Source: Flavobacteriales bacterium (lineage in GTDB: Bacteria > Bacteroidota > Bacteroidia > Flavobacteriales_F > PHOS-HE28). Taken from it: DNA of 64,000 bases. Within the stretch, counting starts at the first letter, position 1. Each line of letters starts with the position of its first letter. Below the pieces are notes generated by a model. The model worked only from the letters and a program-made list of their open reading frames with translations, did no database searches and had not been told where the DNA came from. The position numbers were made by a program, and so were the translations under genes. Where the stretch lies: contig JADKCV010000002.1 of the NCBI GenBank assembly GCA_016718655.1, positions 87,803 through 151,802 of the forward strand. The letters run 5' to 3'. Below, one piece after another: positions 11,102 to 13,109 of this stretch.

Positions 11102-11818
11102 CCCCCGCTCCCGCGGATCTGCGATCCGTGGTTCCTTCATAGTTGACCTGTGCCGGAATGCTCCCGCCGATCTGTGATCGGCCATCCCTACCTTCGGCTT
11201 GGTGAGCCGCAACTACAAGATCTACGACCAAACGGACCTGCACTACCTGACCTATGCCACGGTCGGCTGGGTGGATGTATTGACACGGCCCGACTATAAG
11301 GACATCATCGTAGAGAGTTTGCGCCATTGCCAACGCGAAAAAGGTCTTGAACTCTTCGCGTGGTGCATCATGACCAACCACGTTCACTTGATCGCCCGTG
11401 CGAAAGCAGGATATCAGCTGCAGGACATCCTGCGCGACCACAAGAAGTTCACGTCGAAAGCACTGCTCAAAGCGGTGGAAGAGAACCCGCAGGAGAGCCG
11501 GCGCGAATGGTTGATGGATCATTTCAAGAGGGCGGATGGTGGAAACCAAGTGTGGCAGCATGACCTGCACCCGATCTGGTTACGACGTGCAGACATTATC
11601 CAGCAGAAGCTGCGTTACATCCATCGGAACCCGGTGGAGGAAGGCTTGGTGGAAGAGCCGCATCACTACCTGTACTCCAGCGCGCGCGATGAAGCGGGCC
11701 TACGAGGGATGCTAAAATTGGAAACGATCTGGGGTGAGGTGATCACAGATCACTGCGATAACTTAGATGCCGATGAATGACTGGAGACCACGGATCGCAG
11801 ATCCGCGGTAGCGGGGGA
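11102..11818 (+). mobile_element. RAYT / IS200-like element copy 1, bounded by 29-30 bp inverted repeats
   Basis: Left end CCCCGCTCCCGCGGATCTGCGATCCGTGG (11102-11131). Right end CCACGGATCGCAGATCCGCGGTAGCGGGGG (11789-11818), its reverse complement with one mismatch. The element encloses a Y1 HUH transposase gene. Confidence 0.7.
11199..11780 (+). CDS. REP-associated tyrosine transposase (RAYT; IS200/IS605-family Y1 HUH transposase)
   Basis: 193 aa. HUH motif in HVHLIARA. Catalytic Tyr context LRYIHRNPVEEGL. Size and motif spacing typical of TnpA_REP. Confidence 0.8.
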   Translation: MVSRNYKIYDQTDLHYLTYATVGWVDVLTRPDYKDIIVESLRHCQREKGLELFAWCIMTNHVHLIARAKAGYQLQDILRDHKKFTSKALLKAVEENPQESRREWLMDHFKRADGGNQVWQHDLHPIWLRRADIIQQKLRYIHRNPVEEGLVEEPHHYLYSSARDEAGLRGMLKLETIWGEVITDHCDNLDADE

Positions 11819-11824
11819 TAGATC

Positions 11825-12052
11825 ATGAAAAGAGAAGAAGCAATCGGACTTGCAGTAGAATGGCTGGCAGTTCAACGCGTGGAGCATGGTGCTTTCTTGT
11901 CAGCAGAGATGAGTACCTATGCTGATGAAGTATGGGAGATTGAGTTCGCACATAGAGGTTTGAATGCGCGAAGCTTGACTACTGACCCTTCCTCGAAAAT
12001 TGTTTTGGTTGAAGCAAAGACTGGTGTTATCCGGTTCTTTACGGTGATGTAG
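11825..12052 (+). CDS. hypothetical small protein (75 aa), low-GC orphan cassette between RAYT copies
   Basis: Intact ORF in an AT-richer stretch flanked by REP hairpins. No motif recognised. Confidence 0.3.
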   Translation: MKREEAIGLAVEWLAVQRVEHGAFLSAEMSTYADEVWEIEFAHRGLNARSLTTDPSSKIVLVEAKTGVIRFFTVM

Positions 12053-12130
12053 GGTAGCAGTGCAACTTCCACGAAACAACCGGAATAACCCCTGCAACTT
12101 CCACGAAGCAATCCAGCAACGTCCCTCGCA

Positions 12131-12158
12131 ACGGTCATGTTCCAATCCATCACCTCGG
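12131..12158. repeat. REP-like hairpin (ACGGTCATGTTCCAATCCATCACCTCGG)
   Basis: Same palindromic unit as 10989. Confidence 0.7.
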
Positions 12159-12262
12159 CCACCCGTAGCTCAACAACCGCCTGTGGATCAATGATTACAA
12201 AAGCTGCTGCAGTGACAGGCTTGATGATGGACAGTTGGGGCGAGGGGGGCGTTCGTCGTCCT

Positions 12263-12316
12263 GCGGAGTTTCCCGGAGGTCATTCCGGGCTTCGTGTTCC
12301 AAAGCATCACCTCGGC
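12263..12316. repeat. composite ~55-70 bp REP-related repeat (GTTTCCCGGAGGTCATTCCGGGCTTCGTGTTCCAAAGCATCACCTCGG)
   Basis: Shares the GTGTTCCAA.GCA.CACCTC core. Related copies at 14462-14512 and 16683-16735 with the same GGAGGTCATT(G/C)CG(G/A)GCTTCG leader. Confidence 0.6.
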
Positions 12317-12345
12317 CATTTTCACGCTTTTCAACATCGATCAAC

Positions 12346-12372
12346 GAGGTCATGTTCCAATCCATCACCTCG
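12346..12372. repeat. REP-like hairpin (GAGGTCATGTTCCAATCCATCACCTCG)
   Basis: Same unit. It lies 20 bp upstream of the left inverted repeat of RAYT copy 2. Confidence 0.7.
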
Positions 12373-12392
12373 TTGCCTCGTCGCTCCACAAA

Positions 12393-13109
12393 CCCCGCTC
12401 CCGCGGATCTGTGATCCGTGGTTCCTTCATAGTTGACCTGAGCCGGAATGCCCCCGCCGATCTGTGATCGGCCATCCCTAACTTCGGCTTGGTGAGCCGT
12501 AACTACAAGATCTACGACCAAACGGACCTGCACTACCTGACCTATGCCACGGTCGGCTGGGTGGATGTATTGACACGGCCCGACTATAAGGACATCATCG
12601 TAGAGAGTTTGCGCCATTGCCAACGCGAGAAAGGTTTTGAGCTCTTCGCGTGGTGCATCATGACCAACCACGTTCACTTGATCGCCCGTGCGAAAGCAGG
12701 ATATCAGCTGCAGGAAATCCTGCGCGACCACAAGAAGTTCACGTCGAAAGCACTGCTCAAAGCGGTGGAAGGGAACCCGCAGGAGAGCCGACGCGAATGG
12801 TTGATGGATCATTTCAAGAGGGCGGATGGTGGAAACCAAGTGTGGCAGCATGATCTGCACCCGATCTGGTTACGACGTGCAGACATTATCCAGCAGAAGC
12901 TGCGTTACATTCATCGGAACCCGGTGGAGGAAGGCTTGGTGGAAGAGCCGCATCACTACCTGTACTCCAGCGCGCGCGATGAAGCGGGCCTACCAGGGAT
13001 GCTGAAATTGCAGACGCTCTGGGGTGAGGTGATCACAGATCACTGCGATAACTTAGATGCCGATGAATGACTGGAGACCACGGATCGCAGATCCGCGGTA
13101 GCGGGGGGA
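12393..13109 (+). mobile_element. RAYT / IS200-like element copy 2, bounded by 29-30 bp inverted repeats
   Basis: Left end CCCCGCTCCCGCGGATCTGTGATCCGTGG (12393-12421). Right end CCACGGATCGCAGATCCGCGGTAGCGGGGGG (13079-13109). Body about 98-99% identical to copy 1. Confidence 0.7.
12489..13070 (+). CDS. REP-associated tyrosine transposase (RAYT), second copy
   Basis: 193 aa, differing from copy 1 at ~7 residues (GLELF/GFELF, QDIL/QEIL, EENPQ/EGNPQ, LRGMLKLETIW/LPGMLKLQTLW). Same HVHLI and YIHRNPV motifs. Confidence 0.8.
   Translation: MVSRNYKIYDQTDLHYLTYATVGWVDVLTRPDYKDIIVESLRHCQREKGFELFAWCIMTNHVHLIARAKAGYQLQEILRDHKKFTSKALLKAVEGNPQESRREWLMDHFKRADGGNQVWQHDLHPIWLRRADIIQQKLRYIHRNPVEEGLVEEPHHYLYSSARDEAGLPGMLKLQTLWGEVITDHCDNLDADE

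What the first reader, a model, noticed from the sequence alone, without database searches (positions are those of the whole stretch)
11102..13109. Two ~99%-identical RAYT elements with 29-bp terminal inverted repeats 1.29 kb apart
RAYT/IS200-like Y1 transposases normally have subterminal hairpins and no terminal inverted repeats. Here each gene is bracketed by CCCCGCTCCCGCGGATCTG(C/T)GATCCGTGG and its reverse complement. The two copies differ at only ~7 amino acids, so the duplication or mobilisation was recent. A third, ~30%-identical RAYT lies at 14629. The inverted repeats may represent REP doublets or a hybrid element type.
Basis: seen in the sequence. Interest (0 to 1): 0.55.

Follow-up and report, generated by a model that had tools for sequence, protein, structure and literature searches.

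The report
Duplicated REP-flanked RAYT transposase unit
Two copies of a small tyrosine-transposase (RAYT) gene, each bracketed by its own inverted hairpin repeats (REPs), sit in a toxin/immunity gene array of a Flavobacteriales bacterium. This layout is the already described 'REPtron' design, and the only unusual point is that the whole 715-bp unit is multi-copy and behaves like a mobile element.

Summary
Two 715-bp units (11103-11817 and 12393-13107) are 97.5% identical, not 99%. The encoded proteins differ at 6 of 193 residues. Similarity stops exactly at the outer ends of 29-31-nt inverted repeats, so this is not a larger segmental duplication.

RAYT genes are typically flanked by inverted REPs ('REPtron'; TIR-flanked relatives are 'TIRtrons'). 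Each repeat here is a REP: the tail CCCCGCTC plus a 9-bp-stem hairpin.

- The protein passes NCBIfam's RAYT model (97.5 bits, cut-off 80) and fails IS200 (26.9, cut-off 55).
- Its predicted fold is closest to E. coli TnpA_REP (4ER8).
- Its motifs (NHVH, WQ, YIHRNP, SS) resemble the Bacteroidetes subclass 2.6 / Group 5.
- The same REP occurs without a RAYT gene, as singlets, doublets and internally deleted derivatives, in many Flavobacteriales MAGs.

The less ordinary part is that the whole unit recurs with identical ends at four or more sites in this species' population and at one unrelated site in other assemblies. There is no target-site duplication, dN/dS is 0.1-0.2, and there are signs of recombination between copies. 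All four species sites lie 0-22 nt downstream of an intergenic repeat of Rhs toxin/immunity arrays.

Verdict: a new member of a known kind, of modest interest.

The parts
11103..11817 (+). RAYT unit, copy A (715 bp; 716 bp if the extra C at 11102 is counted): left REP, leader with inner hairpin, RAYT ORF, right REP
   Evidence: Direct repeat with copy B, and homology ends at these positions. The same ends recur in an unrelated context in L053-L062 and L031 and at sites 3 and 4 in L070-L073.
11103..11131 (+). Left REP / inverted repeat of copy A: tail CCCCGCTC (11103-11110) plus hairpin CCGCGGATC-TGC-GATCCGTGG (11111-11131; 9-bp stem with one G.T pair)
   Evidence: The same 29-nt unit is dispersed without a RAYT gene in other Flavobacteriales MAGs.
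11166..11182 (+). Inner left hairpin GCCGATC-TGT-GATCGGC, 16 nt upstream of the start codon
   Evidence: Read from the sequence and present in the predicted fold. It shares the GATC-TGY-GATC apex with the outer hairpin.
11199..11780 (+). RAYT ORF, copy A (193 aa from TTG 11199; database relatives start at GTG 11202, 192 aa). HUH = H61-V-H63, WQ 119-120, catalytic Y140 in YIHRNP, SS 160-161
   Evidence: NCBIfam NF047646 97.5 bits, cut-off 80. Pfam Y1_Tnp 34.7 bits. Invariant columns. Fold closest to 4ER8.
11739..11753 (+). Inner right hairpin GTGATC-ACA-GATCAC, inside the 3' end of the ORF
   Evidence: Read from the sequence. In L073 the 77-nt tandem duplicate of the right end starts at this hairpin.
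11788..11817 (-). Right REP / inverted repeat of copy A (CCACGGATC-GCA-GATCCGCGG-TAGCGGGGG on the + strand). The hairpin with the G.T pair forms on the - strand
12393..13107 (+). RAYT unit, copy B (715 bp; the G at 13108 may belong to it)
   Evidence: Contig L002 begins exactly at 12393.
12393..12421 (+). Left REP of copy B (loop TGT instead of TGC)
12489..13070 (+). RAYT ORF, copy B (193 aa; 6 substitutions relative to A, catalytic motifs intact)
   Evidence: 98.7 bits; dN/dS 0.20 against A.
13078..13107 (-). Right REP of copy B
11818..12392 (+). Spacer between the copies; not part of the element. It holds a 75-aa ORF (11825-12052) and intergenic array repeats (motif copies at 12139, 12296, 12354). 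Copy B interrupts the last repeat 22 nt after the motif
   Evidence: (families D2, D4).
14516..15331 (+). Separate, distantly related RAYT-like unit C. ORF 14629-15168 (NHAH, FQ, YIHANP). Its own inverted repeats are at 14591-14611 / 15276-15296 and 14516-14530 / 15313-15327. A cognate hairpin doublet lies at 15277-15331
   Evidence: I6; 60.5 bits, below cut-off 80. Its right-end hairpin also occurs without a RAYT gene in L009 and flanks a 72%-identical RAYT in L023.

Best explanation
Each copy is a REPtron-type unit: a RAYT gene (REP-associated Y1 HUH tyrosine transposase, Bacteroidetes subclass 2.6 / Group 5-like) bracketed by its two cognate REPs in inverted orientation.

Shown here:
- The 715-bp unit is a discrete block that recurs with the same ends at several unrelated positions, without target-site duplication.
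- The protein is an intact RAYT under purifying selection.
- The same REP exists as gene-less singlets, inverted doublets, tandem right-end copies and internally deleted derivatives in related genomes.
- Copies exchange sequence, and alternative flanks join at the element ends.

Inferred mechanism, by analogy with E. coli TnpA_REP and IS608/ISDra2:
- The RAYT binds the GATC-TGY-GATC hairpins that form in single-stranded DNA, for example at replication forks.
- It cleaves just outside the CCCC / GGGG tails through a 5'-phosphotyrosine link to Y140, with H61/H63 holding the metal.
- It then rejoins the strand elsewhere.
- Because the two ends are inverted copies of one REP, the enzyme can mobilise a single end (a REP singlet or right-end tandem), two close ends (a REPIN-like doublet), or the two ends with the gene between them (the whole unit).

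Copies A and B are two such insertions into the repeat-rich spacers of an Rhs toxin/immunity array. Once present, they also act as portable homology for recombination.
For: Protein identity:
- NF047646 'REP-associated tyrosine transposase' scores 97.5 and 98.7 bits against a cut-off of 80. IS200 model NF033573 scores 26.9 against a cut-off of 55.
- The best sequence match in the PDB is 4ER8 TnpA_REP, with its Y115 aligned to our Y140.
- The AlphaFold model has pLDDT 87.8. Its best Foldseek hit is 4ER8 (E 4.7e-9, TM 0.71 on the target), ahead of ISDra2 and IS608 TnpA.
- H61, H63, W119, Y140, N144, P145, S160 and S161 are invariant in 31 homologues.
- The motifs fit the Quentin et al. table for subclass 2.6.

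Ends:
- The inverted repeats occur 4 times against 0 expected.
- The hairpin is predicted on the + strand at the left end and as a shorter 6-bp stem on the - strand there. The full 9-bp right-end hairpin on the - strand is read from the sequence; the predicted minimum-energy fold of the right end did not return it.

Discreteness and mobility:
- A/B homology ends at the repeat termini.
- The same unit, 94.8% identical, lies between a DPP-IV peptidase gene and an arginase gene in L053-L062 and L031, with identical ends.
- Further sites 3 and 4 lie in a paralogous Rhs locus.
- In L063 an intact Rhs ORF runs through the point (ACACCT|GTACTCG) where L034, L066, L069 and L070 have the element's right end (GAGCGGGGG|GTACTCG).
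- No target-site duplication is seen at any site.

REP family:
- 29 loci in about 20 Flavobacteriales/Bacteroidota MAGs carry the exact hairpin core, most without a RAYT gene nearby.
- The conserved tail CCCCGCTC accompanies them.
- Doublets are spaced by about 25-27 nt (L006, L028). Doublets with about 175-270 nt between their cores (L005, L022, L027) are internally deleted derivatives, and L022 retains RAYT codons.
- Tandem 41-nt and 77-nt right-end units occur.

Selection: dN/dS is 0.11-0.20 among four copies.

Literature: REPtron/TIRtron layout and copy-number statistics.
Against: - No transposition intermediate was seen. No RE-LE junction occurs in any fetched locus.
- No clean filled/empty pair with both junctions was found. 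The metagenome scan for an empty site A found nothing, and the left junction of the insertion in the L063-type Rhs gene was not recovered.
- In this 64-kb window the REP occurs only at the four element ends. Genome-wide dispersal of gene-less REPs is shown only for related MAGs, not for this genome.
- All four sites known in this species lie in Rhs arrays next to one intergenic repeat, so part of the spread could be by homologous recombination between arrays rather than by transposition.
- Mosaic copies and alternative flanks could partly be assembly chimeras at a 715-bp repeat.
- RAYT-catalysed movement of any REP or REPIN has never been reconstituted in full, so the mechanism is by analogy.
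Confidence: 0.75

Rival explanations
1. The RAYT is domesticated and does not move itself. The copies arose and spread only by host homologous or illegitimate recombination between Rhs/immunity arrays, which share about 190-nt intergenic repeats. The coincidence of homology ends with the REPs reflects REP-stimulated breakage, not transposition.
For: - All four sites in this species lie 0-22 nt downstream of the array motif.
- Diagnostic sites are mosaic between copies.
- One-copy variants (L001, L047) have a single A-to-B switch between 11351 and 11426.
- The same left flank is joined to different right flanks (L070 against L071; L034/L069).
- RAYTs are usually single copy.
Against: - The distance and the sequence between motif and element differ at each site (0, 5, 20 and 22 nt), so the motif and the element are not one co-duplicated block.
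- The unit also sits, with the same ends, in an unrelated housekeeping context that has no such motif in the flanks read.
- Right-end-only tandem copies and internally deleted derivatives are hard to make by homologous recombination.
Confidence: 0.12
2. It is an ordinary IS200/IS605-family insertion sequence (a TnpA-only IS200 type) mislabelled as a RAYT.
For: - Pfam Y1_Tnp hit.
- Multi-copy, with no target-site duplication.
- Many homologues lie on contigs of about 1 kb, as expected for assembly-breaking repeats.
Against: - The IS200 equivalog model scores 26.9 bits against a cut-off of 55, while the RAYT model passes.
- The Tyr motif is YIHRNP, not Y[IV]ENQ, and the protein is about 190 aa with the RAYT C-terminal SS extension.
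- The fold is closest to TnpA_REP.
- The ends are inverted copies of one hairpin, unlike the same-strand LE/RE hairpins of IS608/ISDra2.
- Gene-less REP singlets and doublets are dispersed.
Confidence: 0.04
3. The duplication is an assembly artefact: one element was assembled twice, or strain variants were merged.
For: Two assemblies (L001, and L047 = GCA_029560915.1) show only one copy.
Against: - The copies differ at 18 positions and have four different flanks.
- The two-copy arrangement recurs in at least 10 independent assemblies from different samples, including a 410-kb and a 526-kb contig.
- NCBI proteins MBK9512416 and MBK9512418 are two locus tags apart in one MAG.
- The one-copy form is exactly what collapse or recombination across the repeat would produce.
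Confidence: 0.02
4. It is a classical double-strand 'cut-and-paste' element whose 29-nt repeats are bound as duplex terminal inverted repeats (a TIRtron/TIRYT-like or DDE-like mode).
For: The terminal inverted repeats are near perfect. TIR-flanked RAYT-like genes are described.
Against: - There is no DDE protein and no target-site duplication.
- Each repeat is itself a hairpin with a strand-specific G.T pair.
- The TIRYT motif GGGGWSAS is absent from the termini (sequence).
- Single ends are amplified on their own.
Confidence: 0.05

Closest known systems
REPtron: RAYT / TnpA_REP gene flanked by cognate REPs in inverted orientation (Nunvar et al. 2010; E. coli TnpA_REP, PDB 4ER8)
   Same: - Y1 HUH protein with the RAYT signature.
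- Gene bracketed by two inverted copies of a short hairpin repeat that carries a conserved tail.
- The same repeat occurs elsewhere without the gene, as singlets, doublets and clusters.
- The fold is closest to 4ER8.
   Different: - The tail is CCCCGCT(C/A), not 5'-GTAG.
- The stem is short (9 bp), with a 3-nt loop and a GATC apex.
- A second, inner hairpin lies at each end.
- The whole gene-plus-REP unit is present in several near-identical copies, whereas E. coli has one.
TnpA_REP subclass 2.6 of Quentin et al. 2018 (= RAYT Group 5 of Bertels et al. 2017), mostly Bacteroidetes
   Same: - Host phylum.
- Length of about 180-190 aa.
- Motifs NH[LIV]H, WQ, YIH.NP and the SS extension.
- 'Atypical' flanking secondary structures, with copies elsewhere in the genome.
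   Different: - The variable residue of the Tyr motif is R (YIHRNP) rather than Q/N.
- Subclass 2.6 copies within a genome average 1.8 and about 41% identity, whereas these copies are 95-98% identical.
IS200/IS605 family (IS608, ISDra2)
   Same: - HUH/Tyr chemistry and hairpin-bearing ends.
- No target-site duplication.
- Multi-copy, with a discrete unit.
- The mechanism proposed here is borrowed from this family.
   Different: - The ends are inverted repeats of one hairpin rather than two same-strand subterminal hairpins.
- The profile score is below the IS200 cut-off.
- There is no conserved 4-5-nt target on the left flank.
- There is no tnpB.
REPIN (REP doublet forming a hairpin; Bertels & Rainey 2011)
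   Same: Two inverted REPs act as the mobile unit. Short doublets with 25-27-nt spacers exist in related MAGs (L006, L028).
   Different: Here the 'spacer' between the inverted REPs is the 655-bp RAYT gene itself, so the unit is an autonomous counterpart of a REPIN.
TIRtron / TIRYT (Di Nocera et al. 2013)
   Same: A RAYT-like gene with long terminal inverted repeats, some of them self-complementary and members of small repeat families.
   Different: The termini lack the GGGGWSAS motif. The repeats here are bona fide hairpin REPs.

Membership tests
RAYT / TnpA_REP (REPtron) | Y1 HUH nuclease core with HUH motif and catalytic Tyr in a Y-x-x-x-N-P context | tested here: met
   N60-H61-V62-H63; Y140-I-H-R-N144-P145. 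These are invariant in 31 homologues. Y140 aligns with Y115 of 4ER8. Both copies are intact.
RAYT / TnpA_REP (REPtron) | Scores above the curated cut-off of the RAYT profile and below that of IS200 | tested here: met
   NF047646 scores 97.5 and 98.7 bits (cut-off 80). NF033573 scores 26.9 and 26.0 bits (cut-off 55).
RAYT / TnpA_REP (REPtron) | Fold closest to TnpA_REP | tested here: met
   The model has pLDDT 87.8. The Foldseek top hit is 4er8_A (E 4.7e-9, TMt 0.71, 184 columns). IS200-type TnpAs follow at E 2e-6 or weaker.
RAYT / TnpA_REP (REPtron) | Gene flanked by cognate palindromic repeats in inverted orientation | tested here: met
   (I1, I3).
RAYT / TnpA_REP (REPtron) | The flanking repeat is dispersed in the same genome at extragenic sites without the gene | tested here: inconclusive
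   Met in related MAGs: 29 loci, at least 3-10 copies per MAG within the fetched stretches, most without a RAYT gene. In this 64-kb window there are no copies beyond the four ends. Only a solo 69-nt left end and right-end tandems are known for this species. The whole genome was not available.
RAYT / TnpA_REP (REPtron) | Single copy per REP family per genome (typical of domesticated Groups 2 and 3; not strictly defining) | tested here: not met
   Two copies within 2 kb here, and at least four sites in the population. The literature reports 0.8-6.3% of RAYTs with a duplicate of at least 95% identity.
TnpA_REP subclass 2.6 / RAYT Group 5 | Motifs NH[LIV]H, WQ, YIH[QN]NP, SS; about 179 aa; Bacteroidetes host | tested here: inconclusive
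   NHVH, WQ and SS are present, but YIHRNP has R at the variable position. The protein is 192-193 aa. Homologues are named Flavobacteriales/Bacteroidota. No tree was built against the published reference sets.
IS200/IS605 | TnpA profile above cut-off; Tyr motif Y[IV]ENQ | tested here: not met
   26.9 bits against a cut-off of 55. The Tyr motif is YIHRNP.
IS200/IS605 | Different subterminal hairpins at LE and RE on the same strand, no terminal inverted repeats, and a conserved 4-5-nt target abutting LE | tested here: not met
   The ends are 29-31-nt inverted repeats. The left flanks TCAAT, ACAAA, CTCCC, CGGCT and TCGTT share no motif.
IS200/IS605 | No target-site duplication | tested here: met
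   The flanks of five sites were compared.
TIRtron / TIRYT | TIRs unrelated to REPs, many with the motif GGGGWSAS | tested here: not met
   The termini read CCCCGCTC...GAGCGGGG(G), which contains no GGGGWSAS. The repeats are hairpin REPs.

The most novel reading that the evidence does not exclude
This is a RAYT that still mobilises itself: an autonomous 'REPIN with its gene inside', a living intermediate between IS200-like elements and domesticated single-copy RAYT/REPIN systems. It inserts preferentially next to a hairpin-forming intergenic repeat (GGTCATGT(T/A)CCAATCCATCACCTCG) of Rhs toxin/immunity arrays. Its copies then drive shuffling of Rhs toxin tips and immunity cassettes. For example, they separate an Rhs core from its C-terminal toxin, as in L070 compared with L063.
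Probability: 0.25. Interest if true: 0.6.

Novelty: new member of a known kind. Interest (0 to 1): 0.33.

Why it matters
RAYTs are usually described as single-copy, vertically inherited, domesticated transposases that move only their REP/REPIN passengers. How REPs are copied is still unresolved experimentally.

A RAYT unit with sharply defined ends and several near-identical copies is a convenient natural substrate. It also comes with single-end amplifications and deletion derivatives. Together these delimit where cleavage and joining should occur (just outside CCCC...GGGG). That gives concrete oligonucleotides for in-vitro assays.

The unit's confinement to Rhs toxin/immunity arrays in this species suggests that such elements contribute to the plasticity of polymorphic-toxin loci.

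None of this changes the classification. It is a REPtron of a known Bacteroidetes RAYT lineage.

Tried and rejected
1. Larger segmental duplication: rejected. Homology stops at the repeat ends, and the 575-bp spacer is not repeated after copy B.
2. Target-site duplication: searched at five sites and none found. The extra complementary bases outside copy A (ATCAAT/ATAGAT, I1) are not reproduced at the other sites.
3. Empty site for copy A: an exact-flank pattern with a 0-30-nt gap found no hits in metagenome contigs. Both insertions appear fixed in this species.
4. Second metagenome scan, for the left-end junction: only sites A and B and the solo left end were found in that collection.
5. RE-LE circle or tandem junction: absent from all 73 loci.
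6. Rfam: no family matches 10400-16900.
7. Structure in the roughly 190-nt intergenic array repeat: RNAalifold gave only a weak consensus (-18 kcal/mol, covariation term -0.7), so no RNA claim is made.
8. Pfam and NCBIfam on the six small neighbouring ORFs, and Pfam on the C-terminal 601 aa of the Rhs protein: no hits at E <= 0.01. The 75-aa and 78-aa ORFs are unrelated to each other.
9. GTAG-tag reading: the right arm of A and B contains GTAG (GCGGTAGCGGGG), but it lies 3' of the hairpin, and other copies have GGAG there. It is not the E. coli-type 5' GTAG guide.
10. Replication-strand argument: GC skew suggests that the - strand is the leading strand. Because the ends are symmetric, this says nothing about the active strand.
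Full report
**1. What is in the sequence**

Reading 10400-15800 and the repeat search show a direct repeat with 1290-bp start-to-start spacing. Pairwise alignment with flanks and a base-by-base comparison place the two copies at 11103-11817 and 12393-13107.
- They are 715 bp long, with 18 mismatches and no indels, so they are 97.5% identical.
- Outside these limits the sequences are unrelated on both sides. The repeat is therefore not part of a larger segmental duplication.
- Each copy is bounded by a 29-31-nt inverted repeat. The left arm is CCCCGCTCCCGCGGATCTG(C/T)GATCCGTGG. The right arm is its reverse complement with one mismatch.
- The window holds exactly four matches to this repeat, against 0.00 expected in shuffles.
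- Each arm is a hairpin, CCGCGGATC-TGY-GATCCGTGG, with a 9-bp stem that includes one G.T pair. It is preceded on the outside by the tail CCCCGCTC.
- The G.T pair makes the hairpin better on the + strand at the left end and on the - strand at the right end (sequence). The fold calls return the 9-bp hairpin on the + strand and a 6-bp stem on the - strand at the left end, but the minimum-energy fold of the right end did not return the outer hairpin.
- A second, inner hairpin with the same GATC-TGY-GATC apex lies at each end: 11166-11182, just before the start codon, and 11739-11753, inside the last codons.

**2. The protein**

Both ORFs (11199-11780 and 12489-13070) encode 193 aa, or 192 aa from the GTG used in database entries. 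They differ at six residues, none of them catalytic. Of the 14 coding differences, 7 are synonymous single changes and 7 lie in 6 replaced codons.
- They hit Pfam Y1_Tnp. In NCBIfam they pass the equivalog model 'REP-associated tyrosine transposase' (97.5 and 98.7 bits, cut-off 80). They fall far below the IS200/IS605 model (26.9 bits, cut-off 55).
- The best sequence match among solved structures is E. coli TnpA_REP (4ER8). Its catalytic Y115 aligns with our Y140.
- An AlphaFold model built on 31 homologues (pLDDT 87.8) is closest to 4ER8 (E 4.7e-9). IS200-type TnpAs come next.
- Invariant residues in the family include H61, H63, W119, Y140, N144, P145, S160 and S161.
- The motif set NHVH / WQ / YIHRNP / SS, the length and the host phylum resemble subclass 2.6 of Quentin et al. 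2018 (= Group 5 of Bertels et al. 2017). [quoted passage not shown] I could not build the tree against the published reference sets, so this assignment rests on motifs.

**3. The inverted repeats are REPs**

I scanned one genome per species (GTDB representatives) for the exact hairpin core.
- The scan returned 29 loci, almost all in Flavobacteriales/Bacteroidota MAGs. Most have no RAYT gene nearby.
- The dispersed copies also keep the outer tail, (C)CCCCGCT(C/A/G), and 9-14 nt of the inner flank.
- Singlets occur.
- Inverted doublets with 25-27-nt spacers occur and are REPIN-like (L006, L028).
- Inverted pairs with about 175-177 nt between their cores occur, whose inner parts are the two ends of a related RAYT unit (L005, L027).
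- A pair with about 270 nt between its cores still holds RAYT codons 2-26 (L022). These last two kinds are internally deleted, MITE-like derivatives.

This is the behaviour of a REP family with its RAYT. The literature already names this layout. A RAYT gene flanked by inverted REPs is a REPtron, and RAYT-like genes with longer terminal inverted repeats are TIRtrons/TIRYTs (PMC3733652; PMC6006769). Its alternative reading, that the repeats are REPs, is right.

**4. Is the whole unit mobile?**

Several lines of evidence point to a discrete, copied unit.
- (a) A and B have identical ends but four unrelated flanks.
- (b) In other assemblies the same unit (94.8% nt identity) lies between a DPP-IV-type peptidase gene and an arginase gene. 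Homology begins and ends at the same nucleotides. Its right end there is followed by two additional 41-nt right-end units in tandem.
- (c) In a paralogous Rhs locus of the same population there are two more full-length sites. Site 3 is in L070/L071, and site 4 is in L071/L072/L073. A 77-nt tandem duplicate of the right end occurs in L073.
- (d) In L063 an intact Rhs ORF reads through ...QIQTP|VLERDKP... (ACACCT|GTACTCG). In L034/L069, L066 and L070 the sequence from GTACTCG onward directly follows the element's right end (GAGCGGGGG|GTACTCG) and is 100% identical over about 5 kb. This is a filled/unfilled contrast for the right junction. The matching left junction was not recovered.
- (e) No site shows a target-site duplication, as expected for HUH/Tyr chemistry.
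- (f) dN/dS among four copies is 0.11-0.20, so the ORF is maintained.
- (g) Many close homologues lie on contigs of about 0.7-1.3 kb. Contig L002 starts exactly at the left end of B. Both are typical of assembly breaks at a repeated element.

Against this, no circle junction was seen. No empty site for A was found. RAYT-driven transposition has never been fully reconstituted for any system.

**5. Age and dynamics**

The two-copy arrangement occurs in at least 10 independent assemblies, including contigs of 410 kb and 526 kb and three NCBI MAGs. Flanking DNA in these assemblies is 99% or more identical to the window. The duplication therefore predates the sampled diversity.

The 18 diagnostic sites are mosaic among assemblies.
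- Most B copies carry A-like bases at the 5' end.
- L003 has B-like bases in the 3' half of a copy at site A.
- L001 and L047 have a single copy with A's left flank, B's right flank and one switch between 11351 and 11426. That form is exactly 1290 bp shorter.
- The same left flank is joined to different right flanks (L070 against L071; L034/L069 = B-left + site-3-right).

These patterns fit gene conversion and recombination between copies. Some may be assembly chimeras at a 715-bp repeat.

**6. Context**

The units lie in a 6-kb, lower-GC stretch (53% against about 60%). It sits between a 2500-aa SpvB/TcdB/Rhs-type toxin gene (3003-10505; Pfam hits listed for the identical protein) and the ribosomal-protein/rpoA operon (from 16828, - strand).

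The stretch is an array of small, unannotated ORFs, which look like immunity genes. Each is followed by a roughly 190-nt repeat that begins with GGTCATGTTCCAATCCATCACCTCG. There are seven motif copies, all on the + strand, against 0.17 expected.

All four full-length sites known in this species lie 0-22 nt downstream of a motif copy.
- A follows a degenerate copy, GGTCAAGTACCAATCAAT|.
- B lies 22 nt after a copy.
- Site 3 lies 20 nt after a copy.
- Site 4 lies 5 nt after a copy.

The varying distance argues for independent insertions with a target preference. Recombination between arrays remains the rival explanation.

The third RAYT-like gene (14629-15168) is 25% identical to A and scores 60.5 bits, below the cut-off. 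It has its own inverted repeats and a cognate hairpin doublet (15277-15331). That doublet is likewise found without a gene in L009 and around a 72%-identical RAYT in L023. This agrees with the rule that each RAYT has its own REP family.

**7. Mechanism: shown and inferred**

Shown:
- An intact HUH/Tyr RAYT.
- Hairpin REPs as the exact ends of a repeated unit.
- Single-end, double-end and whole-unit copies.
- No target-site duplication.
- Recombination between copies.

Inferred from E. coli TnpA_REP and IS608/ISDra2:
- The enzyme recognises the hairpins in single-stranded DNA.
- It cleaves just outside the CCCC/GGGG tails via Y140, with H61/H63 coordinating the metal.
- It rejoins the DNA at a new site.
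- The inverted symmetry lets any pair of ends, including the pair that encloses the gene, behave as one unit.

**8. Verdict**

The feature is real. The stated anomaly is not an anomaly. This is a REPtron of a Bacteroidetes RAYT lineage. Its less common property is that the gene-plus-REP unit is multi-copy and apparently still mobile, and that it is concentrated in Rhs toxin/immunity arrays. It is a new member of a known kind, of modest interest.

Noticed in passing
window 10992-16740 (motif copies at 10998, 12139, 12296, 12354, 14337, 14494, 16557): A roughly 190-nt intergenic repeat that begins with GGTCATGTTCCAATCCATCACCTCG follows each small ORF downstream of the Rhs toxin gene. There are 7 motif copies, all on the + strand, against 0.17 expected. 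It has no Rfam match and only a weak consensus fold. All RAYT units of this species sit 0-22 nt after such a motif. Its nature (cassette boundary, recombination site or insertion target) is unexplained.
   Followed up: partly
window 3003-10505 (+) and 10519-16543: A 2500-aa SpvB/TcdB/Rhs-type polymorphic toxin gene is followed by an array of small ORFs without family matches: 155, 75, 78, 195, about 235 and 142 aa. They look like an immunity / orphan-immunity array. The stretch 10-16 kb has 53% GC against about 60% elsewhere.
   Followed up: partly
L063 (reverse complement 6036) versus L070 5144, L034 5284, L066 299: The C-terminal toxin tip and its downstream gene are part of an intact Rhs ORF in L063. 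In other assemblies the same tip is an orphan module that starts exactly at the right end of a RAYT unit downstream of a different Rhs gene (79% identical core). The sequence to the right is 100% identical over about 5 kb. This suggests that RAYT copies take part in displacing Rhs toxin tips.
   Followed up: partly
L034 6805-6873; also L063, L066, L068, L069, L070: A solo 69-nt left end of the unit, cut inside the inner hairpin, is wedged between a fragment of Rhs core coding sequence (..LLKQFAYDPLNRLLT) and the intergenic repeat. An IS1-family transposase gene lies next to it.
   Followed up: partly
window 14516-15331: The third RAYT-like gene has its own inverted repeats and a 52-nt hairpin doublet. 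The same doublet occurs without a gene in L009 (98% identical) and around a 72%-identical RAYT in L023. It is therefore a second, independent REP/RAYT pair 1.4 kb from copy B.
   Followed up: partly
L053 3616-3700: Two extra 41-nt right-end/REP units follow the RAYT unit in tandem. The called start codon of the downstream arginase gene (3671) lies inside the last REP, so it is probably a mis-called start.
   Followed up: no
L004 4708-4728: One exact match to the 21-nt REP hairpin core lies in a Hydrogenophilales (Betaproteobacteria) MAG contig, the only hit outside Bacteroidota. It could be chance (about one match is expected for 20 specified bases in this collection), contamination or transfer.
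   Followed up: no
window 11111-11131, 11166-11182, 11739-11753, 11788-11808 (and the same in copy B): All four hairpins of a unit share the apex GATC-NNN-GATC, so each stem contains a duplex GATC site, the motif recognised by Dam-type methyltransferases. Whether methylation matters here is unknown.
   Followed up: no
L038 3303-3419: A run of N interrupts copy A in this JGI contig. This is a scaffolding gap at the repeat, not a biological deletion.
   Followed up: yes
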